DNA of 64,000 nt from the NCBI GenBank assembly GCA_030765145.1, contig JAVCDA010000010.1:119344-183343 (forward strand), in the 5' to 3' direction. The stretch comes from Candidatus Saelkia tenebricola. GTDB lineage: Bacteria; Omnitrophota; Gorgyraeia; Kaelpiales; Kaelpiaceae. This document shows, piece by piece, positions 17,449 to 45,588 of the stretch. The position numbers and the translations under genes were made by a program. The stretch's first letter is position 1. Each line of letters opens with the position of its first letter. The notes beneath the pieces are model-generated. The model did no database searches. It had not been told where the DNA came from and saw only the letters and a program-made list of their open reading frames with translations.

Positions 17449-18655
17449 CTAATCAGATAACATAACTGAATCATTTTCGGCAATCTGCATCTTAGGTAAA
17501 CTAAGTAGAATACTGGCTGCAGAGGTAACCTCTCTGACATCAATGACTTGAAGCTTAGCGATCAATGTGTTGCCTCGGTATATGGAAAATCCCATACCAA
17601 TTTGCACCCCATCTCTTCTGCCAATATCGATGATTATAAAACCTTCCTCTACATTAACAAAGACAACTCTTCCTTTAAGTAGCTCGTCTTTAATTTCTAT
17701 TCTGGGTAATTCTACAGCTTCGCCTTCAGTATCGTAATTTAGTTTTTTTATCTTTTCCAATGCCATCTCAAGATCCTGTTTTAATTTTGTAACCTCTAAC
17801 ACTTCGTCTTCCAAAACTCGATTAATATATCCAATCCTTTGATTGAATATTTCTTTTTCTTTTTTCTCTTTTTCGACATTCTGTTCTAACTGTGTAATTC
17901 TTTCGCTTATTTCCTTTTTTCTGTCCTGCGCCTGTGCAACCTTCATCTGAAGCGTATTTTTATCTCTTTGCATTTCTTCCACCTGCTTTATATATGAAAA
18001 CTTCTCTTTCTTCTCCTGCTCCAAAGATGCGCTTAAGGAAGACACTATCTTTTTAGTATCCTGAAACTTATTTTCTAAATTTTCTTTTTTATCCAATAGA
18101 TCATTTACAATATTATTTAAATTTTCTTTCTCCTTCTCAAACCTTGAAATCTCGCTATCTTTTTTCTCTAAAAGTCTTTCCAAACTACTAAGCCTTAATT
18201 CTAGATTGGATTTCTCCCGCAACAAATTTGACCAGAAACTGTCATCACCTGTGTTATTGTATTTTATATTCTCTTGGCTTGTAAAACTTGCTTTGACATC
18301 ATTCTTCTCCCGTACTAATCTAGCAACACTTTCCCGTAACCGCATATTTTCATCAGCCAGCTCCTTGAAGTTGTTTTCAGAAATAAGTTTTTCCTCCTCC
18401 ACTTTCGACAGATGTGTTTGATACTTATTAAGATTGGCCTGTATTTTTTCAATCTCTGACTTAAACTTGTCGAGATCAAACTCCAAGTCTCTATTTGTTT
18501 GATACCAAAGCACTTTTTCTTCTGTGTATCTGGAATAAATTTTTCTATTCTCTAACCCAAGCCAAACGGCAGAAATAACAGACACGCTTAAGAGCGTACC
18601 GCATAAAGAATAAATTACTGTTTTTACTGAGTCCGACATTTTCATATTGTTCTTG
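17449..18655 (-). CDS. membrane-anchored coiled-coil protein with a C-terminal small beta-rich module; last gene of the RND efflux operon
   Basis: Start taken at MKMSDSV, giving a 14-nt overlap with the upstream RND gene; the ORF-track start at 18792 lies inside that gene. One N-terminal TM helix, then about 280 aa of heptad-rich Glu/Lys sequence. The C-terminal GRVVFVNVEEGFIIIDIGRRDGVQIGMGFSIYRG block resembles the C-terminus of the OMF. Confidence 0.6.
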
Positions 18656-21600
18656 GTTTTGATATCCGCAAAATTTTTGTTACAACATATCGTACGTCTT
18701 CCATTATTATATACACACAGGGAATAACTAAAAGGGTTAAAATTGTTGAAACGCTCATCCCTCCAATAACAGTCTTTGCCAAAGGCGACCATAAATTGGC
18801 AGATTCGCTCCTGTCCACCGCCATGGGGATTAAACTACAAATTGTAGTTAACGATGTCATAAATATCGGTCTTATCCTGCTTTCGGCTCCTAAGAGCACT
18901 GCTTTCCTTAATTCCATCCCTTCTATTCTTAAAAGATTTATGTGATCCACCATAACTATAGCGTTATTAACAACAATACCTCCCAGCATTAACATGCCCA
19001 TCAACGCACCAATATTAATCGATGTACCAGTATAGTAGAGCGTAGGGATTACACCTATCGCCGCCAAGGGAACTGTAGTCATGATGATAAGGGGCTGAAT
19101 ATATGATTCGAAGAGAGACGCTAAAACCAAGAAAATCAGAATTAAAGCTACCCAAACTGCAAAGTTCAATTGCTTGTTATTCTCTTCCATCAATTCATAA
19201 TCTCCGCTAAAGCGATGTGAGTAATCATCCGGCATTTTAAAATCGCGAAGCGCTTCTTTGGATATTTCAATTGCCTTATCTAAAGAAAGAGCACCCCTAT
19301 TAGCGCTAACCTGAACCATTCTGGATTTATTCTTATGCCAAATCTCGCTAGGCGCAATATCAAATTTAAGATCTGCGATTTGCTTGAGAGGAACCTGAAT
19401 TCCGTTGCTGTTTACAAAAGTAAGGTTCTTTAAGTCTTTAAAACTATCTCGGCTTTCTTCTTCCATCCTCACCACTATCTCTACCTCTTTAGTCTTTGTA
19501 TGAAAAAAGGAGGCCCGCAAACCTCTTATTTTTCCATGCAACTGGTAGGAGATATCCTGGATAGTCAGCCCGTAAGTGCTTGCCTTATCTTGATCTATCA
19601 AAACACGAATCTCAGGCCTACCTTCTCTCATCCTTATCTTCTGATCCGTAATGCCTTCAACCGTACTTAATTTCTGCGCTATGCCCATGGCTATCTGCTT
19701 TAAAACATCATAATCATAACCATTTATATCTATAAAAATCTCGCTACTACCTACCTCCTGAGGCAATTCAAAATAAATAAAAGCGTCAAACTGTTTTGCT
19801 ATCTCATCCATCTTAGGGCGTAATTCCGTTATAATATCATCCGTCATCCGATACCTTTGAGAGAGAGGTTTTAGTTTTACATATACTTTCGAAGACCATC
19901 TTTCTATGCGAGAAGAAACAGTTTTAATCTCAGGAACTTCTCTCAAAATGCGCTCTACCATCGCAACAGCCTTATCAGACATCTCAAGGCGAGCACCCGT
20001 AGGCAATTCTACATGAGCGGTAAACTTGTTAAGTTCGGTAATGCCAATAAATTCCTTCCCTATTTGATTCCATAATGGCAACACAATTAAAAACACCGCT
20101 ACCATAAAAAACAAAAACTGATACCTTAATCGTAAAAAGCCACCCAATAGTTTTCTGTAAAATCTTCTGCTTTTTCTCACCTTGTCTTTACGCTTATTGA
20201 TAAATGGAATACCTCGACCAAGCTCCACCATAGATGAGGCTAAAGGCACCAGCGTTAACGCAACAAATAAAGATGCCAGCAAAGAATATACTACAGTCCA
20301 AGCCAAACCGCTATAAAGAATACGCATCTGTTTGCCTACAAACATAATTGGTAAAAATGCAACTACAGATGTAATGGTAGAAGCAACAATTGCAAGACTA
20401 ACTTCCTGCGCTCCATTTAAAGCTGCTAAACGCTTGTTAGCACCTGCCTCCTTTTTTTTAAAAATATTTTCTAATACAACGATTGAAGAATCCACCAACA
20501 TTCCTATCCCAAGTGCAAGCCCTGAGAGAGTCATAATATTTAAAGTCAAACCCTGCATAAACATTATTGTAAACGTTGCCATAACAGAAATTGGAATCGA
20601 AAGTGCAATAATAAAAGTCGGCGGCATATCGTGTAAAAATAACAGCAACACTATTACTGCCAGTGCACTGCCAAACATCAGAGATTTTCGCACAGTATCT
20701 ATGGCTTCTTGAACATACTCCGCCTGCTGGAAAGTAGGCCTGATGATCACGTCTTGAGGGATGATTTTTCTTATTTCCTCAAGTTCTTTGACTATCAACT
20801 TATTAACTTTGATAGTATTAGCCGTGGATTCTTTTTGAATATAAATGGAGACTACCGGACGAGCATCTACCCTTGATAAATCCATCGGGTCCAAAAATGA
20901 ATCCTTTATCTGAGCTACATCTTGAAGGCGTATCACAGAGCCCTGGGGTGTGAAACCCACTCCGATTCCTTTGATATCTTCTATTGTATTGAACTGCCCT
21001 AACAGCCTTATTAAGTACTCAATGCGTTTGCTTTCCAAATCACCGACTAAAATATCCAAATTGTTAGCTCCGACCATATCAATTAACTGCCCCAAAGATA
21101 TGTTGTAGGCTCTTAATGTTGATTCTTCTGTTTCTACTAAAATCTTTCGCTCTCTACCACCTGCAACCTCAATATTTGCTACCCCCTCCAGTCTTTGAAA
21201 CCTTGACTTAACTTTTTCGTCAACAATTCTGCGTAACATCTCCGGAGTATATTTTTCTCCGGTCACAGCAAGTATAACAATCGGAACATCAGTCTGCTGA
21301 TACCGAGCAATAACGGGCTTTTCAATTTCTTTGGGTAATTTATCTTTGACCCTGCCAAATTTTTCTCTCACCTCCAAAGAAGCAAAATCCATATTGGTCC
21401 CCGGCTCAAACTTTAAAATTACCCGCGATTCACCCTCTTCGGATATTGCAATCAATTCTTTCAGATTACTAACATCGCTCACCGCTTCTTCAACCGGCTT
21501 TGTGACCAAGCGTTCAACATCCGGAGATGGTATCCCACCTCTAATCCGTATAATAATACTAATGGTGTCATAGCTGTAATTGGGCATCAACTCTACTGGT

Positions 21601-21695
21601 AATCGAACTAAAGCAATATACCCGATAAGAACAATGCCTAAAAAAATCATTGCCATTGTAATCGGCCGTTTAATCGCAACGCTTGCTAATCCCAT
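18642..21695 (-). CDS. efflux RND transporter permease subunit (AcrB/HAE family), second of a tandem pair
   Basis: 1017 aa, 12-TM RND architecture with large periplasmic loops; conserved RND motifs. Confidence 0.9.
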   Translation of the reverse strand: MGLASVAIKRPITMAMIFLGIVLIGYIALVRLPVELMPNYSYDTISIIIRIRGGIPSPDVERLVTKPVEEAVSDVSNLKELIAISEEGESRVILKFEPGTNMDFASLEVREKFGRVKDKLPKEIEKPVIARYQQTDVPIVILAVTGEKYTPEMLRRIVDEKVKSRFQRLEGVANIEVAGGRERKILVETEESTLRAYNISLGQLIDMVGANNLDILVGDLESKRIEYLIRLLGQFNTIEDIKGIGVGFTPQGSVIRLQDVAQIKDSFLDPMDLSRVDARPVVSIYIQKESTANTIKVNKLIVKELEEIRKIIPQDVIIRPTFQQAEYVQEAIDTVRKSLMFGSALAVIVLLLFLHDMPPTFIIALSIPISVMATFTIMFMQGLTLNIMTLSGLALGIGMLVDSSIVVLENIFKKKEAGANKRLAALNGAQEVSLAIVASTITSVVAFLPIMFVGKQMRILYSGLAWTVVYSLLASLFVALTLVPLASSMVELGRGIPFINKRKDKVRKSRRFYRKLLGGFLRLRYQFLFFMVAVFLIVLPLWNQIGKEFIGITELNKFTAHVELPTGARLEMSDKAVAMVERILREVPEIKTVSSRIERWSSKVYVKLKPLSQRYRMTDDIITELRPKMDEIAKQFDAFIYFELPQEVGSSEIFIDINGYDYDVLKQIAMGIAQKLSTVEGITDQKIRMREGRPEIRVLIDQDKASTYGLTIQDISYQLHGKIRGLRASFFHTKTKEVEIVVRMEEESRDSFKDLKNLTFVNSNGIQVPLKQIADLKFDIAPSEIWHKNKSRMVQVSANRGALSLDKAIEISKEALRDFKMPDDYSHRFSGDYELMEENNKQLNFAVWVALILIFLVLASLFESYIQPLIIMTTVPLAAIGVIPTLYYTGTSINIGALMGMLMLGGIVVNNAIVMVDHINLLRIEGMELRKAVLLGAESRIRPIFMTSLTTICSLIPMAVDRSESANLWSPLAKTVIGGMSVSTILTLLVIPCVYIIMEDVRYVVTKILRISKPRTI

Positions 21696-21698
21696 AAA

Positions 21699-24600
21699 TT
21701 ATCCCTTAAATTCATACCACCTACCCGGACCATTAGGCCCTTTAGCAATTATTATTTCTTTGTCCACCAGGTCTTTAAGGTCTCTCGCCGCGGTGGCAAC
21801 TGAAATTTTAAAAATATCCTGACATTGCCGCCGCATAATTCTACCGTGTTGCTTTATATACAATAAAACTTCTTTTTGTCGTTTGTTTAATTCCGGGAAC
21901 TTCTTGAAAACATCCCTCTCTAACACTTTTTCCTCTATTTCAGGTTCAGATAATATAATTTTTTCTTCCATTATTTCTTGGACAACTTCTATTGTTTTTG
22001 CTTTCTCAAGAGGAGATTCTTTTTCGATCATTTTTACCGCAACTAAATATAGCGCCGGGACAACAAACAATGTAAGAATCGTTGAAGAAGATAACCCTCC
22101 AATAACAGCAATCGCCATAGATGCTCTTAGCTCTGCTCCTTCACTTAAACCTAAAGCTAGAGGGATTAGGCCTAACGTAGTAGTGAGTGCAGTCATTAAT
22201 ATTGGCCTTAGCCTATGTTGGCACGCTTCTATTGCCGCATCATATGGATTAACACCTTCTGCCCTTAGTCCATTAATACGGTCTAGCAATACGATGCCGT
22301 TATTAACAACAATACCTCCTAAAATTATCACACCTAAAAATACCACTATATTTAAAGTGGTGCCTGTAAGTAGAAGGGCTATACTTATTCCGATTAATGA
22401 AAGTGGCACTGAAAACATTATTACGAAAGGCTGCCAAAGAGACTCAAACTGTGCCGCCATAATCATATATACCAAAACAATAGATAGTATAAGAGCAAAC
22501 ATTAAATTCTTGAACGATTCTGCCATTTCTTTTTTCTCTCCGCTCATTTTAACCATATAATCTTTTGGCACTTCAATTGCCTCAATAACATTTTCTATAT
22601 CCTTGATAATTTCACTGAACCTTCTTTTATAAACATTGGCGGAAACCACAACAGTCCTTTCTTGGTCTAAACGTTTAATTTGGCTGGGCCCAATTCCTTT
22701 TGCAAGATAAGCAACATCGGCTAGAGAGACTTCCACCCCTAAGGGAGAATGAATCAAAATATTTCTGACTTTAGCTATATTTTCTTTATCTTCTTCCCGA
22801 AGTCTTGTTCTGATATCATATTCCCTGCCTTCTTCTTTATATTTTGACGCTACATACCCTTTAATTGCAGCCTGAGTAGCCAAAGAAATACTGTTAACCG
22901 AGAGATTATATAGTGCAGCTTTTTTCTTCATTACATTCACTTTTATTTCAGGCTGAGCCGGAGCAAGGTCACTCTTAATATCGTATAAGCCGGAAATATG
23001 TTCAAACCGAGCGATTAAATTCTCAGAAAGAGTTCTTAAGGTGTCTATCTCCTTCCCTTTTAGCTCTATGGTAACAGGCTTACCTCCCTGCATAGCAGCC
23101 TTAAAAATTGTCTCCTGTAAAATATATTCTATTTCCGCCTTTTCTAAATCAGTACCTATTAAATCTGTTTGCAATTGCTGAACCACTCCCTGACTCTTTC
23201 TGTATTCTGCGTCTCTTTTAGACATCTTTTTAAGATTGACGACAATTTGTGCTTGATGTGAGCCCATAGTTGCCACAGCTCCGCCATACGCTTTTTCCTT
23301 ACTAGAACCAATTGTCACACCTACACCTTTTATGTCTGGATAACCGAGTAAAATACGCTCTATTTTTTTAACAACTCCATCTGTAACTTCAATCCTGCTA
23401 CCTGTAGGCATATCTATCTTAATCAAAAATTCACGCTGATCTACTTTGGGCATTAATTCTCTATCAACCGTATTCAGCAAGTAAAAAGCACCCATTGTTA
23501 TCAAGATGATAATTGCAAAATAAAAATATTTGACTTTAAGAAAAGCTTTCAGGCTCCGAGCATATGAAGATTGCAATATCCGCATCCAAGCCCATTCTTT
23601 TCGAACAGTCTTTTCGGTTTTAACTTTAGCTGCAAGTCTTGGGATTAAAGATAACGCTACAGCCAATGATGCTAAAAGCGCAAACGTTACGGTAAAAGCT
23701 AATTCTCTGAAAAGTTGCCCCGCAACTCCTTCTACAAACATAAGCGGCAGGAACACAGCAATGGTTGTAAAGGTAGAAGCTGAAATTGCAGTGGCTACCT
23801 CACTAGCTCCAGAAGATGCCGAAAGAGATGGAGATTCACCCATCTGTCTATGGCGAAAAATATTTTCAATAACAACAATTGCATTATCAACCAACATTCC
23901 TACTCCAAGCGCAAGCCCCCCTAAAGACATTATGTTTACCGAAAGACCTCTGAAATACATCAAGCTAAAAGTAAGCAGAATTGAAATAGGAATTGAAAGC
24001 GCAACTATAACAGAGCTGTAAATGTTCATAAGAAACAAGAACAAGACTATAAATGCCAATACTCCGCCTTGAAAAGCTGCGTCTCTCACCCCATTTATAG
24101 AATCTTCAATAAATTTGGACTGATCATACACAATCTCTATTTCTGCTCTACCTTTAATCCTTTCTCTAATTTCATCCAATTTTTTATTAACATCTTTAAC
24201 GACTTTTATTATATTGGCTCCTGCCTGCCTCTGAATTCTAATTGAAATATTTTCTCTTCCGTTATACCGCGATATGTTAGTTAAATCTTTCAACGAATCA
24301 ACAACTTTTCCTAAATCCTGAACATAAATAATTCTTTTATCAGATGATTCTCCTTTCATCTGCCTAATATATTCTTCATATTGCGTTTTAGGTGGGTCAA
24401 CTTCCTGCACATCAACAACTACATTTCTTATTTCTTCGACAGCCTCAAATTCTCCCATCGTTCTAATCATGTATTCATAGAACGTTTCTTTTATTGTCCC
24501 GGCAGGAAAAGTAAAATTAGTTTGCTTAATTGCTTCGGCAACTTTTAAAATCGGAATTTTATTGGCATATAATTTACCTTGATCCAATTCCACTAAAATT

Positions 24601-25145
24601 TCTCTTTCTCTTCCCCCCACAATACCGGCCGAAGCTATGCCTTCGATTTTTTCAAGCTCATCTTTGATTTCTTTTCTGCACAATTCCCGCAATTGCCTGG
24701 ATGGTATATCACCTTTTACAGAAAGAATCGCAACCGGAATTTCAAAAGGATTAAACTTCATAACAATCGGATCTTCAGAGCCTAAAGGCAATCTCTCTTT
24801 AACGAGATCAATCTTTTCTCTTACACCAAGTGAGGCAAAATCCATATTGGTGCCCCAATCGAAATCTAAGATTATAAGCGATAAACCTTCTTTAGAAAGA
24901 GAGGAAATTTTTTTAAGCCCGTTTACCGTTCCTACCGCTTCTTCCATTATTTTTGTTATTAACGTTTCTACTTCCTCAGGAGAAGCATTCTCATAAGTCG
25001 TAACAATCGTAATTTGCGGATAGGAAATCGAAGGGTACAATTCCTGGGAGAGCTTCATCCAAGAGATAACACCTAAAAGCCCTATTCCTAAATAGAACAT
25101 TGTAATTGTTACTGGTCTCCTAATAGAAAATTCAGGCAGGTGCAT
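21699..25145 (-). CDS. efflux RND transporter permease subunit with about 105-aa C-terminal cytoplasmic extension resembling a winged-helix DNA-binding domain
   Basis: 1148 aa. RND core through about aa 1040. The tail ...KRQKEVLLYIKQHGRIMRRQCQDIFKISVATAARDLKDLVDKEIIIAKGPNGPGRWYEF has an HTH-like pattern seen in Fic/RecG-type wHTH tails. Confidence 0.85.
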   Translation of the reverse strand: MHLPEFSIRRPVTITMFYLGIGLLGVISWMKLSQELYPSISYPQITIVTTYENASPEEVETLITKIMEEAVGTVNGLKKISSLSKEGLSLIILDFDWGTNMDFASLGVREKIDLVKERLPLGSEDPIVMKFNPFEIPVAILSVKGDIPSRQLRELCRKEIKDELEKIEGIASAGIVGGREREILVELDQGKLYANKIPILKVAEAIKQTNFTFPAGTIKETFYEYMIRTMGEFEAVEEIRNVVVDVQEVDPPKTQYEEYIRQMKGESSDKRIIYVQDLGKVVDSLKDLTNISRYNGRENISIRIQRQAGANIIKVVKDVNKKLDEIRERIKGRAEIEIVYDQSKFIEDSINGVRDAAFQGGVLAFIVLFLFLMNIYSSVIVALSIPISILLTFSLMYFRGLSVNIMSLGGLALGVGMLVDNAIVVIENIFRHRQMGESPSLSASSGASEVATAISASTFTTIAVFLPLMFVEGVAGQLFRELAFTVTFALLASLAVALSLIPRLAAKVKTEKTVRKEWAWMRILQSSYARSLKAFLKVKYFYFAIIILITMGAFYLLNTVDRELMPKVDQREFLIKIDMPTGSRIEVTDGVVKKIERILLGYPDIKGVGVTIGSSKEKAYGGAVATMGSHQAQIVVNLKKMSKRDAEYRKSQGVVQQLQTDLIGTDLEKAEIEYILQETIFKAAMQGGKPVTIELKGKEIDTLRTLSENLIARFEHISGLYDIKSDLAPAQPEIKVNVMKKKAALYNLSVNSISLATQAAIKGYVASKYKEEGREYDIRTRLREEDKENIAKVRNILIHSPLGVEVSLADVAYLAKGIGPSQIKRLDQERTVVVSANVYKRRFSEIIKDIENVIEAIEVPKDYMVKMSGEKKEMAESFKNLMFALILSIVLVYMIMAAQFESLWQPFVIMFSVPLSLIGISIALLLTGTTLNIVVFLGVIILGGIVVNNGIVLLDRINGLRAEGVNPYDAAIEACQHRLRPILMTALTTTLGLIPLALGLSEGAELRASMAIAVIGGLSSSTILTLFVVPALYLVAVKMIEKESPLEKAKTIEVVQEIMEEKIILSEPEIEEKVLERDVFKKFPELNKRQKEVLLYIKQHGRIMRRQCQDIFKISVATAARDLKDLVDKEIIIAKGPNGPGRWYEFKG

Positions 25146-25173: not shown

Positions 25174-26424
25174 TTAAAATAATTTTTCCTGTGTTTCTAT
25201 GATTTTTATCCCGGTACCGGCTGAAAATCTTTTCATACCCGGAGTCTCTATAACAATCAGAGCGCCTTCTGTAAGCCCCTTTTTAATAACAGCATAATCT
25301 GTCGTAATATACTCTACGGTAACTGGAGCATATTTAATCTTTTCTTCTTCTATCATCGCAGCGTAATAAGCACCTTGTTGAATTGATACAGATGAACTCG
25401 GTACAACCAGAGCGTCTTTCTTTCTGAATACAGCAACATCTACCCGGGCAAACATTCCGGGTTTTAACAGTTTGCCTGGGTCTAAAACTCTGACCCTGAT
25501 GTTTAATGTGCGTGTTCTTTCATCAATTGCAGGGAAAACAGTTTCCACATAACCAAAAAACACTCTTGTGGGATAGGTGTCCACCTTGACTTTTACTTTC
25601 TGCCCGGATTTAATTTTAAACACATCTTTTTCTATGACCCCTATTTCTACAAATGTATTGGCGGCATCTAACAAAGTAAAAATAATGTCATTAGGGGTTA
25701 TAAATTCGCCGACATCTTTCTCTTTTTTGTTGATAATACCTGCTTGAGGGGCTTTCATATCAAGTTTTTCTAATTTGACCTTGCTTAGTTGAAGTTCTTT
25801 TTTGCTTATATCTATTTTTGCCTTGGATACTTCAAGCTCCGCCTGCAATTGATCCAGCCTGGCTTTTATAATCGCCCCAATTTCATAAAGCCTTTTGACT
25901 ACTTGATATCTTTTAAGAGCCGCTTTATATTCAGCCTCTGTAGCATTCAATTTTGCCTGAGCCCATTGAATTTCAAGCTTCACATCTTTTGAATCAAGGG
26001 TTGCTAACAAATCTTGTTTTTTGACTTTATCTCCTTCTTTAATTTTGATATTTTTTATTACCCCATTGACTTCAAATCTAAGCTCTATCTCCGGAATATT
26101 CCTAACAGTCCCTACCGCAGGAAGTTCATCGGTAAAATCCGTGAATGCAAGCTTATAAGCCTTAATGGGGATGCTTTGCTCCGGTTGCTGCGGCAGAAGA
26201 GATATCGGCGCTTTGGGTTCGGATTTTTCCTCTTCTTTTTTAAAAGGAGTTTGCTTTTTATCTGCCACTTTAGATGAAGCAGTCAAATCCGAGGAAGGAG
26301 CAAAAAGCCTACGCACACCGACAAACAGTAAAATTACAATAATAATGTTCACTGCAATGATAACTAAACTACGCAGGGTAAATATTTTTTTAATAACGGA
26401 TAAAATGTTGGTATTTTCTTTCAT
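25174..26424 (-). CDS. efflux RND transporter periplasmic adaptor subunit (HlyD/MFP family)
   Basis: N-terminal TM anchor, coiled-coil hairpin, lipoyl and beta-barrel segments. 4-nt overlap with the OMF gene. Confidence 0.85.
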   Translation of the reverse strand: MKENTNILSVIKKIFTLRSLVIIAVNIIIVILLFVGVRRLFAPSSDLTASSKVADKKQTPFKKEEEKSEPKAPISLLPQQPEQSIPIKAYKLAFTDFTDELPAVGTVRNIPEIELRFEVNGVIKNIKIKEGDKVKKQDLLATLDSKDVKLEIQWAQAKLNATEAEYKAALKRYQVVKRLYEIGAIIKARLDQLQAELEVSKAKIDISKKELQLSKVKLEKLDMKAPQAGIINKKEKDVGEFITPNDIIFTLLDAANTFVEIGVIEKDVFKIKSGQKVKVKVDTYPTRVFFGYVETVFPAIDERTRTLNIRVRVLDPGKLLKPGMFARVDVAVFRKKDALVVPSSSVSIQQGAYYAAMIEEEKIKYAPVTVEYITTDYAVIKKGLTEGALIVIETPGMKRFSAGTGIKIIETQEKLF

Positions 26425-28667
26425 TGTAATATCTCCACGTTATCTCCTATTCTCAATCCTTTAAAATCCCTGTCTATGCCTTTCTCCAGATAACAGGCTG
26501 CTGTGTTATTATCAATTCTAGCAGGAACAAGCAAAGCATATTCTTGGCCATTTCTATAAACCATGACTTTGCTGTTGGAACTTAACCCCTTGCCTTGACC
26601 AATATTGAGTATTGCCATTCCATACTGATTGTTAACTCCAATAATCCTTCCTTGAATACCCGTAGGAATAATTTGGGTTATTTCTTTCTTAAACTCAGGG
26701 AGCTTGAAAGGAGTGTAGCTTACACTCGTTGCAGGATGATTGCTGAAGTTTTCCCAAGCAGCAATAACAGGTTTTTCTGTCACAAGGCTCATATAGCTTT
26801 CCACTCCGCAAGCTTTGGAGATACTGGAAAGAGCAATGTAATAGCCCAGCAAAGCCCTGTTATAATTTACCTCTTCGTTGGCATAGTCTAAATACCCCTG
26901 CAAAAGCTCTGTGATGTTTGCCTCTTCTACTTTCATTCTACCTTCAGTAACTTTTAATCTTCTACTATGGAACTCCAATTTTTGAAGAGATGTTTCAATC
27001 TGAAAAAGAGAGGAGACATAATTTGCATATGATCTCTCAACTTCGGAAATAATAGATTCTTCCGTTTCCACTTCTTCGTTGACTGCTTTCAAAAATTCTA
27101 CGCGTGCTGTTTTTTCATCGGAAGCCATACTCAACCTATCAACAATAGACCATTCCAAAGATTTGGTAAAAGATTTTGTCGTGTCTTCTGTGCTAAACAT
27201 TCCCACAGGTCTATTCTGCTGCACCACCGAAGCATCCAAAGAGCTGTTGCCGATAGGTCTAGACACTTTTAATCCTAGATACCAGCTATCACGGAATTCT
27301 TCAGGTTCTGATTCATAATCTTCAGCTATTTTGCCGACTTTACCGGTCAAACTAAGATGAAATCTGTTTTTTGATTTTGCAATCTGTTCGTTCAAATTGT
27401 TGAATTGTGTTACTAATTGACGTATCTTAAGTTCCGACCTCTGTGTTTTAGCAATTCTTAAGGCCGTCTCTAATCCTATATTAACTTTTCCGAAAGGCAA
27501 CCAATTGACCAATGTAATCTCCTCGTCGCCAGGTAAATTTAACGTCTGCCTGAACGCTAACTCGGATAGAGAAAGTTCTTTCTGAGTCGAAACAAAAAGA
27601 AACTTTATCTGTTGATAAGACGAAGATAGCTGTTTATATTCAACCTCTGTAATCAAACCTTGTTGATATAGCAATTTGCCCATTGCTAATAATTTATTAG
27701 CTTCAGCCAATAGTTTATTAAAAGTGTCCCAGTTCATTCTGTTCAAAACCACATTGTAAAAATTTCTTTTAAGTTCCAGGGTATAATCTGTAGAAAGTTG
27801 CTGACGTTCCATCAAAGCAAGTTCCATATTAATCTTAGCCTGCTCCAGTTTATATTGCAGTTCGCCGCCATATGAAAGAGGTTGTTCAAATTCAATTTCA
27901 GCTGATTTAGATATAATATTTACCTTACCTGTTGTTTCACCTACCGTATCAACTAATCGAACAACTGCTGTGGGGAAAAACTGTCTTCTTGCTTCCTGAG
28001 CTTTCATTTGTGCAAGTTCATATTGTTCGGTTGCAATTTGTAAAGGCCTATAATTTTCAATTCCTATATCAATCCACCGCTGCCATCCCAGTATAGCCTG
28101 TTGCCATTCTTCTTCATCTTGAGGACCTATTTTTTGCTCAGGAGTAAAACTAAATGATTTAGGTAATTCTGTTTCTTCTTCTTTACTATTTTGACTAAAA
28201 ACCACTTCTTTAATTTCGGGAAAAATTATCTTAATAGTATTATCATCAGAGATAATATTATGTTTGAACTCCTTGCTGCCCTTAATAACAATCCCATCAA
28301 CCTTTCCTGCTTCACTATCTCCAGGTTCATAGCCCGGATAAAATTTTACAGTTGCATATTGTAATCCAAACGAGTTCATCTCTAACTTGAATTTTTCCAT
28401 ACAAAGTAAATTACTCCCAATAAGATCCACAAAAAGAGTTTGCTTGTCCTCCATCCAGTAAGTGTGATATAAAGGGCTGCTATTAAATGATATGGTTATT
28501 GCAAACTTTTTATCTAAAAACCCTTTTTGGATATCTTTAAGAATAACCGTATCATTAACATGATACGGTTGGGAATAAGCAAATGATACGGTTACTAAAA
28601 ACCAGATTACGAATGATACGGTTGTTAATTTCTGATTTTTTTTCTCTATCATTCTTAACATAACCAT
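26421..28667 (-). CDS. TolC-like outer membrane efflux factor with N-terminal AMIN-like extension and extra C-terminal beta module
   Basis: The central 430 aa show the two-repeat OEP/TolC pattern. The N-terminal 200 aa include an AMIN-like segment (FAITISFNSSPLYHTYWMEDKQTLFVDL). The C-terminal 110 aa (GRIIGVNNQYGMAILNIGQG...VMVYRNG) are similar to the C-terminus of the coiled-coil protein. Confidence 0.8.
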   Translation of the reverse strand: MVMLRMIEKKNQKLTTVSFVIWFLVTVSFAYSQPYHVNDTVILKDIQKGFLDKKFAITISFNSSPLYHTYWMEDKQTLFVDLIGSNLLCMEKFKLEMNSFGLQYATVKFYPGYEPGDSEAGKVDGIVIKGSKEFKHNIISDDNTIKIIFPEIKEVVFSQNSKEEETELPKSFSFTPEQKIGPQDEEEWQQAILGWQRWIDIGIENYRPLQIATEQYELAQMKAQEARRQFFPTAVVRLVDTVGETTGKVNIISKSAEIEFEQPLSYGGELQYKLEQAKINMELALMERQQLSTDYTLELKRNFYNVVLNRMNWDTFNKLLAEANKLLAMGKLLYQQGLITEVEYKQLSSSYQQIKFLFVSTQKELSLSELAFRQTLNLPGDEEITLVNWLPFGKVNIGLETALRIAKTQRSELKIRQLVTQFNNLNEQIAKSKNRFHLSLTGKVGKIAEDYESEPEEFRDSWYLGLKVSRPIGNSSLDASVVQQNRPVGMFSTEDTTKSFTKSLEWSIVDRLSMASDEKTARVEFLKAVNEEVETEESIISEVERSYANYVSSLFQIETSLQKLEFHSRRLKVTEGRMKVEEANITELLQGYLDYANEEVNYNRALLGYYIALSSISKACGVESYMSLVTEKPVIAAWENFSNHPATSVSYTPFKLPEFKKEITQIIPTGIQGRIIGVNNQYGMAILNIGQGKGLSSNSKVMVYRNGQEYALLVPARIDNNTAACYLEKGIDRDFKGLRIGDNVEILQ

Positions 28668-28683
28668 ATCATAACCGTATCAT
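28545..28683. repeat. cluster of six copies of the 11-bp motif AACCGTATCAT / ATGATACGGTT (both orientations) spanning the OMF start codon and first 40 codons
   Basis: Copies at 28545-55, 28560-70, 28583-93, 28613-23, 28662-72 (variant AACCATATCAT) and 28673-83. The first two form a 26-bp palindrome. Confidence 0.85.
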
Positions 28684-28786
28684 AAAGAATTTCTCAAAAT
28701 TCTGGTCTTATGTCAAGAGAAAAATTCAGTCTTATGCTTATATCATAAACGTTATAAGCACAAGGAAGGGATATTTCGTACGAACC

Positions 28787-29536
28787 CTATTCGGGGATTT
28801 GTTCAATACTTAACAATTCTTCCTGCCTAACCATGATATGCGCTAATCTTTCCAGCTCCCTTATTAATCGTTCCTTTTCTTTAGGGTCTTTTAGAGGCGG
28901 TATTTTTATGATTACTTTATTCTGTCCAAATATCACACTCACTAAAATATCAACTTCATACTCCAATAAAGTATCCTTCTGTTTAATTTCTTGGGGTATT
29001 TTTTCGATAACGCTCTTCGACTTTTGATCGGATACTGCTGATTCCTTGTCTATTTTTACTCTTAAGAGATATTGCTGACTTTGTCCAACATTGTCTTCCT
29101 GTTTTCTTTTGAAAGCAGATTGCATGATAATCGGGATAGATTCCTCTATCTCTTTTATTAAATCCGCAGCTTTAATTGTTCCTAATATTTCTTTATTTCT
29201 ACCCGTTTCTGAAAATTCAATTTCAATAGATTCAACACCAAAAACTTCTTGCGGTAAAATATACGCGTGATAATCTCTGCCCAACGGCGAGTCTACAGTA
29301 AAAGGCTGTTCGGTTCCAGCATAGGGATAATACAAGACTTCGCTTTCTACTTTCTTTAACGGAGAGTATATAGGCTTACTGAATTTGTCTTTGCTGCCCA
29401 AGCTATAATCCCATTCCACAGGTGGTGCGGCATACACCTTGTTACAGATGCATATAGAACTGGATAGAAAAACAGCAACGTGGCAAAAAACTTTCAGATT
29501 TTTCTTATAAGTGAGGCAATGCAATTTTATTACCAT
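28787..29536 (-). CDS. hypothetical secreted protein
   Basis: ORF with an internal signal-peptide-like segment (VFCHVAVFLSSSICICNKVYA), so the real start may be downstream of the track start. No family recognised. Confidence 0.45.
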   Translation of the reverse strand: MVIKLHCLTYKKNLKVFCHVAVFLSSSICICNKVYAAPPVEWDYSLGSKDKFSKPIYSPLKKVESEVLYYPYAGTEQPFTVDSPLGRDYHAYILPQEVFGVESIEIEFSETGRNKEILGTIKAADLIKEIEESIPIIMQSAFKRKQEDNVGQSQQYLLRVKIDKESAVSDQKSKSVIEKIPQEIKQKDTLLEYEVDILVSVIFGQNKVIIKIPPLKDPKEKERLIRELERLAHIMVRQEELLSIEQIPE

Positions 29537-31136: not shown

Positions 31137-31148
31137 ATAAAAATCAAG

Positions 31149-31727
31149 TTACCTGAGATAAAAATTATCGAAGTATGTCCGACCCCCTGTTTGATCAATA
31201 TACCGTTTGTCTATAAATACATTGATTTCAACGAGTTCGGATAAATTCTCCAACTTGAGGCTTTTCAAGGGGATTTCTACCTTATACCAATCATTCCCTG
31301 TTTTAGCGTTCATTACCGTTACGATTTTACCTTTTTTATCTTCAAAGGTTATCCCGATGATTTTGGAATAGCCTACTGCCGGCTCCCCTTTAACCCAGAA
31401 ACCAAAATATTGATACCCGCTAAAATCATATCCTGAAACATGGAGCCAGATTCCACCCACCAAATCATTGTCAGAGCGAAAATCGTAATCCAATGCGAAT
31501 GAATGACCCTCTTCCCCATATTTTACGAGACTGGACTTCGAGCCTACAAAGGTAGTATGTCTATCCTCCATAAATTCTTCCCATACACCGCCTTCAAATG
31601 TTTCCTGCTCAAAATCCTGTAACAGAAAAATCTTTTCCTTTGTTTCTGTCAATTCCTCTGTATACACTTTATCTGCGCAAAAAAGAAAAACTATTCCGAC
31701 CGTTAAAACAGCTATTCTTATATTCAT
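31149..31727 (-). CDS. secreted single-domain protein, third paralog of the CBM-like domain
   Basis: Signal peptide MNIRIAVLTVGIVFLFCA. Shares DYD(V/F), G.W......DFS.YQ.F.FWVKG and TYFDN motifs with ORFs at 14120 and 11487. Confidence 0.6.
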   Translation of the reverse strand: MNIRIAVLTVGIVFLFCADKVYTEELTETKEKIFLLQDFEQETFEGGVWEEFMEDRHTTFVGSKSSLVKYGEEGHSFALDYDFRSDNDLVGGIWLHVSGYDFSGYQYFGFWVKGEPAVGYSKIIGITFEDKKGKIVTVMNAKTGNDWYKVEIPLKSLKLENLSELVEINVFIDKRYIDQTGGRTYFDNFYLR

Positions 31728-41776: not shown

Positions 41777-42014
41777 TAGTTGTGTTGTTTTCTAATAAGT
41801 ATTTGTTTTATAGTATGTATTAGTAGTGTTTGTGTAAAAGTGGATAATAATATAAACATATATGTATCAATGGTTTATTGATAAAAGTGTATCTGTGTAA
41901 AATGTTGTTAAAAAGGTGGTTCTTTTTTTTATTGATGTATTTATCCACATATCCACATTTTATCCACAAGCAATCTATGTGTTTTTAAGGATCTTTTCCT
42001 CAAGTTTATCCACA
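41777..42014. other. candidate oriC: AT-rich unwinding region plus DnaA-box cluster
   Basis: Perfect TTATCCACA at 41941-49, 41960-68 and 42006-14. ATATCCACA at 41949-57. Inverted TTATCCACT at 41839-47. An AT-rich stretch at 41777-41940. Confidence 0.7.
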
Positions 42015-44091: not shown

Positions 44092-45570
44092 ATGATGGAG
44101 AAAAGAATTCTTATTGCAACGGGTCTTGCTTTTTTAGTTTTGTTAATGTATCAGCCGTATTTAAAAAAGTTGGGTGTGCAGCCACAAAGAAAAACAGTTG
44201 TAACGCAAGCCAGTAAAAAGCCCAATGATACGGTTGTGCCGTATGATACGGTTGATATTGAGACTGTTCAGACAGATGATACGGTTGCTGATACGGTTTT
44301 AGAGAATGATTTACTCAAGTTAACTGTTAATGAAAGAACAGGCACAGTAAAAGAAATCTATTTTTGGGATCATGGCACAAGCGCCATTCTTTACTCATTG
44401 CAAAATAAAGGCTTAGGATTATTTGCGCCAACCGTATCAACCGTATCATTTCAAAGTCGATTAGGTTTCAGTGCAAATGATATGGTTCTGGAAGGCCAGA
44501 GAGTAAAACGGTCGTATAAACTGGAGGAACATATCCTAACTACTGTTTTTGAAGGAGAAAAAGAAATTAGTATTTTTATTCCGACTAAATACGATGTTTC
44601 TCCCAGGGAAGCACGGTATGTAAGAATGGTGATTAAAAACACAGATGGTCTAAGCTATGATAAACCTTCCAAACTTATGAAGAATGGAGGAACATTACAG
44701 AACGTGGACTGGTTTGCACTGTCCTTTAGGTATCATTCTTTACTGTTTGATCCAGACAATATTGTAGACTTAGGAATAATTCCATCTTTAAGTAGAGATG
44801 GTTTTATTATCAAAATCAAGTTAGATGAGGCGCGTTTTAGCATAGCAACTTATTTAGGTCCCAATTCTGCCAATATTTTGGAATCCTATAATCAGAGTTG
44901 GCTTGGCGTGTTAAATTACGGGACATTGAACAATGTGGTTAAAACACTCCTAGTATTCTTCCATAAAATAACTCACAACTATGGCAGTGCTATTTTACTA
45001 CTGGCGATGCTGTTAAATTTGATTTTCTCTCCACTTACGCTTAAGTCTCAACGTAGTATGAAAGGCATGCAGAAGCTGCAACCGGAGATACAAGCTTTAA
45101 AAGAGCAATATAAAGATAATCCACAAGCTGTTAACAAGGAAATGCTACAGCTTTATAAAAAGCATAAAGTTAATCCGATGGGAGGATGCTTGCCGATGCT
45201 ATTACAAATCCCGGTATTTATCGCCCTCTATAACACGCTGATGAGAAGCTATGAGCTCAAAAATGCTACTTTTTTGTGGATTAAAGATCTTTCAGCACCA
45301 GACAGACTTGTTATGCTTGGCAAGGCCTTGCCGTTGATAGGCAATGAAATTAACCTTTTACCTTTGTTGATGGCGGGACTCATGTTTGCACAGCAAAAGC
45401 TTTCTCCCGCAGCCAAGATGCCGGGAGCAGGAGCGCAGAATCCCAATATGATGCTTTGGCTTATGCCGATATTTATGGGAGCAATATTTTATAAGTTTCC
45501 AGCAGGGCTTGTTCTTTACTGGTTTACTAATTCTCTGTTTATGCTGGTGCTGCAAATGGCTCGAAAGTAA
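44092..45570 (+). CDS. yidC: membrane protein insertase YidC
   Basis: N-terminal TM anchor, periplasmic P1 domain, conserved C-terminal 5-TM insertase core (GGCLPMLLQIPVFIALY...). Confidence 0.95.
   Translation: MMEKRILIATGLAFLVLLMYQPYLKKLGVQPQRKTVVTQASKKPNDTVVPYDTVDIETVQTDDTVADTVLENDLLKLTVNERTGTVKEIYFWDHGTSAILYSLQNKGLGLFAPTVSTVSFQSRLGFSANDMVLEGQRVKRSYKLEEHILTTVFEGEKEISIFIPTKYDVSPREARYVRMVIKNTDGLSYDKPSKLMKNGGTLQNVDWFALSFRYHSLLFDPDNIVDLGIIPSLSRDGFIIKIKLDEARFSIATYLGPNSANILESYNQSWLGVLNYGTLNNVVKTLLVFFHKITHNYGSAILLLAMLLNLIFSPLTLKSQRSMKGMQKLQPEIQALKEQYKDNPQAVNKEMLQLYKKHKVNPMGGCLPMLLQIPVFIALYNTLMRSYELKNATFLWIKDLSAPDRLVMLGKALPLIGNEINLLPLLMAGLMFAQQKLSPAAKMPGAGAQNPNMMLWLMPIFMGAIFYKFPAGLVLYWFTNSLFMLVLQMARK
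44225..44487. repeat. second cluster of seven copies of the ATGATACGGTT / AACCGTATCAT motif inside the yidC 5' coding region
   Basis: Copies at 44225-35, 44243-53, 44276-86, 44289-98 (10/11), 44430-40 (10/11), 44439-49 and 44477-87 (variant ATGATATGGTT). Confidence 0.85.
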
Positions 45571-45588
45571 CTTTTCACGTGAAAAGTC

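What the first reader, a model, noticed from the sequence alone, without database searches (positions are those of the whole stretch)
28545..28683. Clustered 11-bp motif ATGATACGGTT/AACCGTATCAT straddling the start of the TolC-like efflux gene
Six copies of one 11-mer, in both orientations, lie within 140 bp covering the 5' UTR, the start codon and the first 40 codons of the outer-membrane factor that heads the RND operon. Two of them form a 26-bp palindrome, AACCGTATCAT-TAAC-ATGATACGGTT. The 11-mer is expected far less than once by chance in 64 kb, yet it occurs about 13 times and only here and in yidC. Copies sit in different reading frames and in noncoding DNA, so the conservation is at the DNA level (protein-binding array, recombination or uptake-type signal, or a miniature repeat) rather than a peptide repeat.
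Basis: seen in the sequence. Interest (0 to 1): 0.7.

Follow-up and report, generated by a model that had tools for sequence, protein, structure and literature searches.

The report
DNA-box arrays at envelope gene starts
An 11-base DNA word repeated at the start of an efflux-pump operon and inside the nearby yidC gene is real, is kept as DNA rather than as peptide in related uncultured Omnitrophota-type bacteria, and is most likely the docking site of a still unidentified regulator of cell-envelope genes.

Summary
ATGATACGGTT occurs 9 times exactly (0.01 expected) and 15 times with one mismatch or fewer. Fourteen of those lie in two clusters: 28487-28683, at the promoter, 5'UTR and first ~55 codons of an OEP-MFP-AcrB-AcrB operon, and 44225-44487, codons 45-132 of yidC.

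It is a DNA-level signal. It is read in three frames, always with the same rare codons, and stays invariant where flanks diverge.

It is not parS, a DnaA box, an uptake signal or a peptide repeat. A separate variant parS sits at 45570-45587, and canonical DnaA boxes lie at 41839-42014.

In Omnitrophota-type MAGs the same box recurs at envelope genes: the orthologous OEP promoter (8 of 8 genomes, three fetched without reference to the motif), yidC 5' ends, directly before parA, upstream of giant ORFs, and next to M48/M50 protease genes. At OEP promoters the layout is stereotyped: reverse boxes, TTGACA, 17 nt, -10, forward boxes, start codon.

Best reading (~0.55): an operator array of a sequence-specific regulator of an envelope regulon. 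The binder is unknown. Candidates are a winged-helix domain fused to the C-terminus of the operon's first AcrB pump (present in the window) and a small zinc-ribbon protein (absent from the window).

This is a new member of a known kind, of moderate interest.

The parts
28673..28683 (-). Box copy, exact. First of the tandem pair (11-bp period) in the 5'UTR of the OEP gene.
28662..28672 (-). Box copy, 1 mismatch (ATGATATGGTT). Second of the tandem pair; it abuts the ATG at 28661.
28711..28716 (-). -35-like TTGACA. A -10-like GAAATT follows at 28688-28693 after 17 nt. The block is conserved with L086, and TTGACA holds the same place in L124, L120, L016 and L206.
   Evidence: consensus match only; no transcription start data
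28613..28623 (+). Box copy, exact. Antisense to the gene, encoding TVS in the signal-peptide region.
28583..28593 (+). Box copy, exact. Antisense to the gene, encoding TVS.
28545..28570 (.). 26-bp palindrome made of two exact copies (28545-, 28560+). Read as PYH and DTV.
28487..28497 (+). Box copy, 1 mismatch; the outermost copy of cluster 1.
26421..28667 (-). OEP/TolC-family gene (748 aa, with extra N- and C-terminal regions); first gene of the operon.
25174..26424 (-). Membrane-fusion protein (HlyD_D23).
21699..25145 (-). AcrB1: a full RND pump, then a ~55-aa acidic linker, then a C-terminal winged helix (tail about 21699-22043). Candidate binder of the box.
18642..21695 (-). AcrB2, a second RND pump without the tail.
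44225..44298 (+). Four forward box copies in yidC (44225, 44243 and 44276 exact; 44288 with 1 mismatch), all read as DTV. A decayed copy lies at about 44258.
44430..44449 (-). Two overlapping reverse copies in yidC (44430 with 1 mismatch, 44439 exact), read as TVS-TVS. The 24-nt island is invariant in window, L084 and L082.
44477..44487 (+). Box copy, 1 mismatch (ATGATATGGTT).
44092..45570 (+). yidC (60KD_IMP). It carries cluster 2 in codons 45-132.

Best explanation
ATGATACGGTT (core TGATACGGTT) is the recognition box of a sequence-specific DNA-binding regulator found in a subset of Omnitrophota-type bacteria. Several boxes are packed around the sigma-70-like promoter, the 5'UTR and the first codons of the OEP-MFP-AcrB1-AcrB2 operon. 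A second array sits in the 5' part of yidC.

Proposed mechanism: protein bound to the boxes just downstream of the -10, and to the intragenic boxes behind them, blocks or modulates transcription initiation and early elongation. That is a repressor or roadblock type of operator array. The same factor would co-ordinate a small envelope regulon: the efflux/secretion operon and yidC, and in relatives also parA, giant-ORF operons and M48/M50 proteases.

Shown: the boxes are real, selected as DNA, promoter-proximal, and conserved at orthologous promoters.

Inferred: that a protein binds them, the sign of regulation, and the identity of the factor. Two candidates are encoded in the operon type. One is the winged-helix domain fused to the cytoplasmic C-terminus of AcrB1 (present in the window). 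The other is a small basic zinc-ribbon protein encoded just upstream of OEP in some relatives (absent from the window).
For: 1. Enrichment and clustering in the window.

2. DNA-level selection. The box is read in three frames; it always uses the same, otherwise rare, codons; motif columns are 83% and 91% invariant against 42% and 67% for other columns.

3. The OEP 5' region carries the box in 8 of 8 genomes where that region is visible: window, L086, L016, L055, L120, plus L124, L205 and L206. The last three were fetched through proteins, not through the motif. In L124 there are 3 exact copies in 17 kb (0.03 expected), all within 80 bp at the OEP promoter. In L206 there are 6 copies within 285 bp upstream of OEP.

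4. Stereotyped promoter layout: AACCGTATCA (one or two copies), 8-18 bp, TTGACA, 17 nt, -10, TGATACGGTT (two copies), start codon.

5. Position. Across 43 loci only 45% of copies are in coding DNA against 89% for random positions. 70% lie within -150 to +400 of an ORF start against 41% for random positions.

6. Recurrent neighbours are envelope genes: yidC 5' ends, giant ORFs, a TPS exoprotein, M48 and M50 proteases, and OEP/RND. Several box loci occur per MAG.

7. DNA-binding candidates in the operon.
- The AcrB1 tail scores as HTH_DeoR at 25.9 bits, above the gathering score of 21.
- Its AF2 model is a winged helix with pLDDT 93.6, closest to MarR-type folds.
- The fusion recurs: 7 of 7 full-length representatives tested are complete ACR_tran plus the tail. 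It also occurs split into a separate small gene in L205 and L206.
- The zinc-ribbon gene lies within 20-350 bp of boxes in 5 of 5 loci.
Against: - No binding data exist, and the factor is unidentified.
- The yidC array lies entirely inside coding DNA, 130-400 bp from the yidC start and about 1.1-1.4 kb upstream of parA. No convincing promoter is nearby. That is unusual for an operator.
- Copies occur in both orientations at irregular spacing, which does not match a simple dimeric operator.
- The box is lineage-restricted. Only 2 of about 11 unselected Omnitrophota-type yidC loci carry it.
- One wHTH-bearing RND lineage (L211/L212, with no OEP gene in front) has no box.
- The zinc-ribbon gene is absent from the 64-kb window.
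- The promoter hexamers are consensus matches only.
Confidence: 0.55

Rival explanations
1. Membrane tether rather than transcription switch. The winged helix on the cytoplasmic tail of the AcrB1 trimer binds the boxes and holds box-bearing genes at the inner membrane. This would favour co-translational insertion or export of their products (OEP operon, yidC, giant multi-TM ORFs), or anchor the origin-proximal region.
For: - The AcrB::wHTH fusion is real and recurrent.
- Box arrays sit at the 5' ends of genes for membrane or secreted proteins and extend into coding DNA, where an operator is not needed.
- Both window clusters lie within 15 kb of oriC.
Against: - The link between this wHTH and the box rests on co-occurrence only: 4 of 5 lineages, with L211/L212 lacking boxes.
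- The domain also exists as a free small protein (L205, L206).
- parA, which follows a box pair in many relatives, is not a membrane protein.
- The stereotyped placement around -35/-10 points to promoter control.
Confidence: 0.1
2. Centromere-like or chromosome-organising sites near the origin: a non-canonical parS, or sites for another origin-region protein.
For: - The window straddles oriC. GC skew flips at about 42-43 kb, and DnaA boxes cluster at 41839-42014.
- parAB lie directly downstream of yidC.
- No canonical parS with 3 mismatches or fewer exists in 64 kb.
- In about 20 relatives the box lies in the dnaA-yidC-parAB locus, at variable positions.
Against: - A perfect variant parS, ACTTTTCACGTGAAAAGT, sits at 45570-45587 and is conserved in L084 and L082.
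- Relatives with the box also have a canonical parS.
- The ParB specificity residue co-varies with the parS variant, not with the box.
- Most unselected Omnitrophota-type origin loci lack the box.
- The box is tied to promoters of OEP and giant-ORF operons on other contigs.
Confidence: 0.08
3. mRNA-level element. Forward and reverse copies pair in the transcript and hide the start codon or RBS of the OEP gene (and fold the yidC mRNA), giving translational control.
For: Predicted folds are much more stable than shuffles: z = -4.35 for 28480-28700 on the minus strand, where the 5'UTR tandem pairs with the two reverse copies in the coding region, and z = -3.85 for 44215-44495.
Against: - In most relatives only direct tandem pairs exist, with no partner to pair with.
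- Orientation relative to the downstream gene differs between loci: forward before parA and OEP, reverse before the giant-ORF operon.
- Copies are invariant rather than co-varying.
- No Rfam family matches.
- The same word in unlinked loci needs a trans-acting reader.
Confidence: 0.07
4. Sites of a site-specific recombinase: an invertible promoter switch, or integrase arm-type sites.
For: - Reverse and forward copies flank the OEP promoter.
- In Terriglobia/Bryobacterales the same word, TTTGATACGG in three copies, lies between a tyrosine-integrase gene and a tRNA, like arm-type sites.
- Several Omnitrophota pairs abut a tRNA 3' end.
Against: - There is no recombinase gene in the window or in the Omnitrophota loci: tblastn with the Terriglobia integrase finds none, and Pfam finds none in the ORFs scanned; the right-hand ORFs (48.8-63 kb) were judged only from their N-termini.
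- The segment between the inverted copies at the promoter is only 28-50 bp.
- Window, L084, L082 and L086 all show the same orientation.
- The arrays lie inside essential genes.
Confidence: 0.06
5. Iterons of a replication origin, or remnants of a mobile replicon.
For: Two IMG/VR phage contigs (L209, L210) carry 12 copies of GATACGGTT in about 400 bp. The copies flank an AT-rich stretch directly downstream of a large ORF that I judge by eye, from its translation, to be a primase-helicase; it was not scanned against any library. This is an origin-like architecture using the same 9-mer.
Against: - The window clusters have no AT-rich unwinding element or initiator gene.
- The chromosomal origin has ordinary DnaA boxes elsewhere.
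- No similarity exists between the phage proteins and the wHTH tail or the zinc-ribbon protein.
- With about 10^5-10^6 iteron families in public data, sharing one 10-mer can be coincidence.
Confidence: 0.03
6. Coding or compositional artefact: a DTV/TVSF peptide repeat, or biased composition.
For: Forward copies in yidC are spaced by multiples of 3 and all encode DTV.
Against: - The box is read in three frames.
- Codon choice is fixed and rare.
- Copies occur in non-coding DNA.
- Shuffles give 0.01 expected copies.
- In L095 and L150 yidC the box is read as PYH, TVS or NRI at other positions.
Confidence: 0.01

Closest known systems
Operators of local winged-helix repressors of efflux operons (MarR at marO, MexR at mexR-mexA)
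   Same: - Winged-helix protein encoded with the pump operon.
- Binding sites overlap the -35/-10 and the early transcribed region of the pump operon.
- The predicted fold of the AcrB1 tail is closest to MarR-type winged helices.
   Different: - MarR-type operators are one or two pseudo-palindromes bound by a dimer. Here there are 6-7 copies of a 10/11-bp box in both orientations, reaching ~55 codons into the gene, plus a second array in yidC.
- The candidate domain lacks the MarR dimerisation helices and is fused to the pump itself.
Membrane-tethered one-component regulators (ToxR, CadC, TcpP)
   Same: - A winged-helix DNA-binding domain is held at the inner membrane by the same polypeptide that senses or transports.
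- They bind direct repeats at about one helical turn (my own knowledge).
   Different: - In those proteins an OmpR-type domain is N-terminal and followed by a single TM segment.
- Here a DeoR/MarR-like winged helix is C-terminal to a 12-TM RND pump.
- Binding of this domain to the box has not been shown.
Envelope-stress regulons of OmpR-family regulators (CpxR, BaeR)
   Same: - Tandem direct repeats with a 10-11 bp period in front of genes for RND pumps/TolC, membrane proteases (HtpX-type) and membrane-protein biogenesis factors (my own knowledge).
- The neighbours found here are of these kinds.
   Different: - No response regulator with a DNA-binding output is encoded next to the boxes; the nearby regulator has a GGDEF output.
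- All ten positions are conserved, rather than a hexamer plus spacer.
- Copies are also functional-looking when isolated or inverted.
DnaA-box clusters and plasmid/phage iterons
   Same: - 9-11 bp boxes, read one by one, in arrays of either orientation and irregular spacing.
- Winged-helix initiators read about 10 bp per domain (my own knowledge).
- A phage array uses the same 9-mer.
   Different: - The window arrays are not at oriC.
- The sequence is unrelated to TTATCCACA.
- No unwinding element or initiator gene is present.
ParB-parS
   Same: - Origin-proximal sites next to parAB.
- Tolerated inside genes.
   Different: - parS is a 16-bp palindrome.
- The locus has its own (variant) parS.
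- The box is not palindromic and occurs far from parAB.
Lambda-type integrase arm sites
   Same: - A 10-bp word in tandem at about 11-bp spacing, with further inverted copies 100-200 bp away.
- The Terriglobia loci with an integrase and a tRNA use the same word.
   Different: - No integrase or core site accompanies the Omnitrophota arrays.
- The arrays are stable inside essential genes.

Membership tests
parS (ParB centromere) | 16-bp palindrome close to TGTTNCACGTGAAACA | tested here: not met
   The box has no resemblance to parS. A separate palindrome, cTTTTCACGTGAAAAg, at 45570-45587 fills that role.
parS (ParB centromere) | Co-variation with, or recognition by, the ParB HTH | tested here: not met
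   The residue at the R173 position co-varies with the parS variant: R goes with G, and F/V/K go with T (PMC7383237). Boxes coexist with canonical ParB and parS.
DnaA box / oriC | TTATCCACA-like 9-mers clustered in the dnaA-dnaN or rpmH-dnaA gap | tested here: not met
   Canonical DnaA boxes cluster at 41839-42014. The 11-mer is absent there.
DNA uptake sequence | High, dispersed genome-wide density | tested here: not met
   In 64 kb, 14 of 15 copies lie in two clusters. In the roughly 90 kb of loci fetched through a protein (L124, L205-L208, L211, L214), box clusters occur only in the three loci that include an OEP 5' region; elsewhere there are four scattered 1-mismatch words and no cluster. 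Contigs of more than 100 kb from relatives gave one locus each. No whole genome was available.
Peptide (coding) repeat | One reading frame, synonymous variation, absence from non-coding DNA | tested here: not met
   Three frames, fixed rare codons, and non-coding copies.
Transcription-factor operator array | Fixed placement relative to promoter elements | tested here: met
   Reverse boxes, TTGACA, 17 nt, -10, forward boxes, start codon in window, L124, L120, L016 and L206. The hexamers are consensus matches only.
Transcription-factor operator array | Conservation at orthologous promoters across diverged genomes, including motif-independent samples | tested here: met
   8 of 8 OEP 5' regions carry the box. 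Three of these were fetched by protein.
Transcription-factor operator array | Cognate DNA-binding protein identified | tested here: inconclusive
   There are two candidates. The wHTH accompanies the box in 4 of 5 lineages, and the zinc-ribbon gene is adjacent in 5 of 5 loci. Neither is proven, and the zinc-ribbon gene is not in the window.
Transcription-factor operator array | Box-dependent protein binding and change of transcription | not testable with these tools
   Needs EMSA or footprinting and reporter assays.
Invertible promoter / site-specific recombination site | Recombinase gene nearby, and both orientations observed | tested here: not met
   No recombinase was found in the ORFs scanned; the right-hand ORFs (48.8-63 kb) were not scanned against Pfam, only read at their N-termini. 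The orientation is the same in window, L084, L082 and L086. The inter-repeat promoter segment is only 28-50 bp.
Replication-origin iterons | AT-rich unwinding element and an adjacent initiator gene | tested here: not met
   Absent in the window. Apparently present in the phage contigs L209/L210: the AT-rich stretch is seen directly, but the initiator is my reading of the ORF translation and was not scanned against any library.
Known RNA family | Rfam covariance-model match | tested here: not met
   Only 4 tRNAs were found in the window at gathering score.

The most novel reading that the evidence does not exclude
The box is read by the winged-helix domain that this lineage has welded to the cytoplasmic C-terminus of an RND pump (AcrB1). 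The pump would then act as a membrane-anchored, transporter-coupled DNA-binding protein. It would hold its own operon, yidC and, in relatives, the giant-ORF and parA loci at the membrane, and tune them according to pump state. That would be a 'trigger transporter' governing the envelope programme of Omnitrophota, including their giant coat-protein genes.
Probability: 0.2. Interest if true: 0.75.

Novelty: new member of a known kind. Interest (0 to 1): 0.5.

Why it matters
Omnitrophota are uncultured, and nothing is known about how they regulate genes.

A 10/11-bp box links several things in these genomes:
- a TolC-like/RND operon
- the YidC insertase
- M48 and M50 membrane proteases
- parA
- the hallmark giant ORFs. 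These were proposed to act in predation or adhesion (PMC10066038).

This gives a concrete, testable regulon and two candidate regulators.

The side observation on parS is separate from the box. A variant parS pairs with loss of the otherwise invariant ParB R173. This is a natural example of ParB-parS specificity drift, and it is directly testable with existing assays.

Tried and rejected
1. Non-canonical parS. This was my first hypothesis. I rejected it after finding canonical parS next to the box in relatives and a variant parS at 45570-45587, with the ParB residue co-varying with it.

2. DnaA box. Rejected: canonical boxes lie at 41839-42014.

3. Peptide repeat. Rejected.

4. Rfam. No match.

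5. Literature search for the word itself returned only primers. A search for Omnitrophota plus parS found nothing relevant.

6. There is no homologue in the window or the Omnitrophota loci.

7. Hypothetical genes upstream of OEP (28787-31727). By eye, from their hydrophobic N-termini, these look like secreted proteins, and none gives a Pfam hit, so they are not regulators; no signal-peptide predictor was run.

8. Zinc-ribbon protein.
- It is not encoded in the window.
- It has no Pfam family.
- Its AF2 model has no significant PDB match.

9. Alternative repeat array in the box-less wHTH operon L211. None found.

10. ECF-type promoter reading of the box. The spacing between box copies does not fit a -35/-10 arrangement. 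This is my own inspection.

About 34 chance hits are expected in 596 Gb, so single hits in unrelated phyla (mostly in-frame peptide repeats) were treated as noise.

12. The source genome itself was not recovered, so no genome-wide count was possible.
Full report
THE OBSERVATION

The 11-mer ATGATACGGTT is present as described.
- There are 9 exact copies on both strands against 0.01 expected.
- There are 15 copies with one mismatch or fewer against 0.96 expected.
- Fourteen of the 15 fall in two clusters.

Cluster 1 (28487-28683) holds five exact and two 1-mismatch copies. It includes the 26-bp palindrome at 28545-28570 and a head-to-tail pair with an 11-bp period at 28662-28683.

Cluster 2 (44225-44487) holds four exact and three 1-mismatch copies inside yidC.

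A logo from 133 exact cores in the window and related loci gives A (73%) followed by TGATACGGTT. The tolerated variants are C6>T and G7>A.

CONTEXT

The window is a chromosomal origin region. The gene order is gyrA, gyrB, dciA, dnaN and dnaA on the minus strand, then rnpA, yidD, yidC, parA, parB, ndk and yicC on the plus strand.
- GC skew changes sign at about 42-43 kb.
- Canonical DnaA boxes cluster at 41839-42014.

Cluster 1 lies about 13-15 kb from there, at the head of an operon with four genes:
- an OEP gene (748 aa)
- a membrane-fusion protein
- AcrB1 (1148 aa)
- AcrB2 (1017 aa)

DNA, NOT PEPTIDE

In the two genes the word is read as DTV, TVS and PYH.
- DTV is GAT-ACG-GTT in 5 of 5 cluster copies and in 0 of 3 DTV tripeptides elsewhere in the window; codon usage predicts 0.054.
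- TVS is ACC-GTA-TCA in 4 of 4 cluster copies against 0 of 3 elsewhere; codon usage predicts 0.008.

In alignments with the closest relatives the motif columns are far more conserved than the rest.
- yidC 5' region (74% and 58% protein identity to the window): 83% of motif columns are invariant against 42% of other columns.
- OEP 5' region: 91% against 67%.

In more distant relatives the word sits at other positions of yidC, in other frames (PYH/TVS in L095; NRI/TVS in L150), or in non-coding DNA.

NOT parS

I first suspected a non-canonical centromere. No canonical parS (3 mismatches or fewer) exists in 64 kb, and parAB follow yidC. This idea failed on three counts.
- Relatives that carry the box just upstream of parA also carry a canonical parS, mostly inside parB.
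- The window has a perfect palindrome, ACTTTTCACGTGAAAAGT, exactly between the yidC stop and the parA start (45570-45587). It is conserved in L084 and L082.
- ParB of the window has F, not R, at the position of Caulobacter R173. In the published structure that arginine hydrogen-bonds parS guanine 1, and it is invariant in parS binders (PMC7383237).

Across 25 loci the pattern is consistent:
- R goes with xGTTxCACGTGxAACx.
- F, V or K go with xTTTTCACGTGAAAAx.

So ParB has its own site, and the 11-mer belongs to something else.

DISTRIBUTION ELSEWHERE

A scan of 185,579 species genomes for two cores within 30 bp gave at least 120 loci. About 34 chance hits are expected, and many hits in unrelated phyla are in-frame peptide repeats.

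A coherent group of about 45 loci comes from MAGs titled Candidatus Omnitrophota or 'uncultured Planctomycetia'. There the box is usually a tandem pair, TGATACGGTT-n-TGATACGGTT.

tblastn and clustering of flanking ORFs show these recurrent homes:
- The yidD/yidC 5' end, or the gap between a small Jag-like gene and parA (about 20 loci). The pair sometimes lies 2-3 nt before the parA ATG.
- The 5' end of the orthologous OEP gene (L016, L055, L086, L120).
- The promoter region of an operon made of an 85-aa membrane protein and a giant ORF (more than 2000 codons, running off the locus), often just after a tRNA (11 loci). Giant ORFs are a hallmark of this phylum (PMC10066038).
- Next to a TPS-domain exoprotein, an M48 protease and an M50 protease.

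Several MAGs contribute two or three such loci. Copies are in coding DNA in 45% of cases against 89% for random positions. They lie within -150 to +400 of an ORF start in 70% of cases against 41%. The copies within a cluster are not independent, and most of these loci were selected by the motif.

MOTIF-INDEPENDENT TESTS

Test a: 80 yidC loci fetched from metagenomes by protein similarity. Only 2 of about 11 loci with the Omnitrophota-type synteny carry the box: L125 has a pair in the Jag-parA gap, and L150 has two copies inside yidC. Five of the box-less loci whose yidC/Jag-parA gap was read (L127, L129, L131, L133, L181) show a TTGACA promoter plus parS there; L135 and L146 show parS only, and L126 and L130 carry an extra inserted gene with neither. 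The association with yidC/parA is therefore restricted to some lineages.

Test b: loci fetched through a zinc-ribbon protein or through the AcrB1 tail.
- L124: 3 exact copies in 17 kb (0.03 expected), all at the OEP promoter.
- L206: 6 copies within 285 bp upstream of OEP.
- L205: an exact copy in the first codons of OEP, at the edge of the locus.

Together with the motif-selected loci, the OEP 5' region carries the box in 8 of 8 genomes.

The layout at these promoters is stereotyped: one or two reverse boxes, 8-18 bp, TTGACA, 17 nt, a -10-like hexamer, two forward boxes, then the start codon. In the window these elements map as follows:
- TTGACA at 28711-28716
- GAAATT at 28688-28693
- the tandem pair at 28662-28683
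- the likely start codon at 28661

The hexamers are consensus matches only.

CANDIDATE READERS

AcrB1 carries a C-terminal extension of about 100 aa: an acidic linker followed by a winged helix.
- The tail alone scores as HTH_DeoR at 25.9 bits against a gathering score of 21.
- Its AF2 model has pLDDT 93.6.
- Its closest folds are MarR-type and Fic-associated winged helices.

The C-terminus of RND pumps is cytoplasmic (established AcrB topology; my own knowledge), so the domain can reach DNA.

The fusion is not an assembly artefact.
- It recurs in L124 and in independent fragments.
- All seven full-length representatives tested from an exhaustive HMMER search are complete ACR_tran plus this tail.
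- In L205 and L206 the same domain is a separate small gene between the two AcrB genes.

Among lineages where the 5' end of a wHTH-bearing operon is visible, 4 of 5 have boxes. L211/L212, which have no OEP gene in front, have none and show no alternative repeat.

The second candidate is a small basic zinc-ribbon protein (CxxC..EFTPxKYRP..C..C..YMREYMRRYR).
- It is encoded within 20-350 bp of boxes in 5 of 5 loci: L016, L039, L055, L120 and L124.
- It has no Pfam family and no structural match.
- It is not encoded in the window.

INTERPRETATION

The best-supported reading is an array of binding sites for a sequence-specific regulator. The sites are placed to occlude the transcription start, 5'UTR and early coding region of the OEP-RND operon. 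The same factor would be shared with a small set of envelope genes (confidence about 0.55).

Shown:
- the boxes are real
- they are selected as DNA
- they are promoter-proximal
- they are conserved at orthologous promoters
- DNA-binding domains are encoded in the operon

Inferred:
- that a protein binds the boxes
- that it represses
- which protein it is

The intragenic yidC array is the weakest fit. It has no convincing promoter nearby. It could act as a roadblock, or as a reservoir or tether for the factor.

RIVALS

- RNA pairing of inverted copies is predicted (z = -3.9 and -4.4). It cannot explain direct-only pairs, inconsistent orientation, or the same word recurring in unlinked loci.
- Recombination is suggested by Terriglobia loci where the same word forms three arm-like repeats between an integrase gene and a tRNA. 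No recombinase accompanies the Omnitrophota arrays, and their orientation is fixed.
- Two phage contigs use the same 9-mer as origin-like iterons. I treat both this and the Terriglobia case as probable coincidences of a 10-mer among very many repeat families.

VERDICT

This is a genuine, previously undescribed cis-element of an uncultured lineage. Its kind, an operator or binding-site array, is known. The pump-fused winged helix makes one reading unusual enough to be worth a bench test.

Noticed in passing
window 45570-45587 (site); 46346-47173 (parB): A variant parS, ACTTTTCACGTGAAAAGT, lies exactly between the yidC stop and the parA start. The outer G of each half-site is replaced by T. ParB has F where parS-binding ParBs have the invariant R173, which contacts that guanine. 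L084 is the same (F), L082 has V, and L077 has K with GTTTTCACGTGAAAAC twice. Thirteen loci with R have the canonical G.
   Followed up: partly
window 21699-25145 (-), tail about 21699-22043: An RND pump (AcrB) fused through an acidic linker to a C-terminal winged-helix domain. This is a recurrent family: 7 of 7 full-length representatives tested are ACR_tran plus the tail. The domain is a separate small gene in L205 and L206.
   Followed up: yes
L016 3170-3487; L039 7349-7786; L055 about 1146-1385; L120 4033-4449; L124 6662-7045: A small basic zinc-ribbon protein family with no Pfam or PDB match, always encoded next to box copies. Its stop codon is often supplied by the box itself (..ETVS*).
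   Followed up: partly
L209 3620-4015; L210 10678-11075: Phage contigs with 12 copies of GATACGGTT flanking an AT-rich stretch, just downstream of a large ORF that by eye looks like a primase-helicase (not scanned against any library). This is an origin-like iteron array using the same 9-mer.
   Followed up: partly
L020 5700-5900; L053 4330-4520; L069 1850-2010 and other Terriglobia/Bryobacterales loci: A tyrosine-integrase gene, then three TTTGATACGG repeats, then a tRNA 3' end. These look like arm-type sites of an integrative element that use the same word.
   Followed up: partly
L207, L208, L214; L023, L068, L078, L093: A conserved neighbourhood in Omnitrophota-type contigs: the RND operon, then FIST, histidine kinase and a response regulator with GGDEF output, then a tRNA, the 85-aa membrane protein and the giant ORF. 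This suggests that the box-bearing loci form one larger envelope island.
   Followed up: no
window 26421-28667 (-): The OEP protein is 748 aa, with about 190 N-terminal and about 110 C-terminal residues outside the OEP domains. These regions give no Pfam hit.
   Followed up: no
window 12-2144 and 2132-6502 (+): Two large adjacent ORFs (710 and 1456 aa) without any significant Pfam match.
   Followed up: no
window 41839-42014: A cluster of canonical DnaA boxes (three exact TTATCCACA, with a fourth at 42006 inside the dnaA start) in the dnaN-dnaA gap. It coincides with the GC-skew minimum and is the likely oriC.
   Followed up: partly
L045 about 740-950; L114 about 2700-2760; L002 about 890-990: Downstream of the tandem box pair, several relatives carry short hairpins flanked by CTTCGC repeats. 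Their nature is unknown.
   Followed up: no
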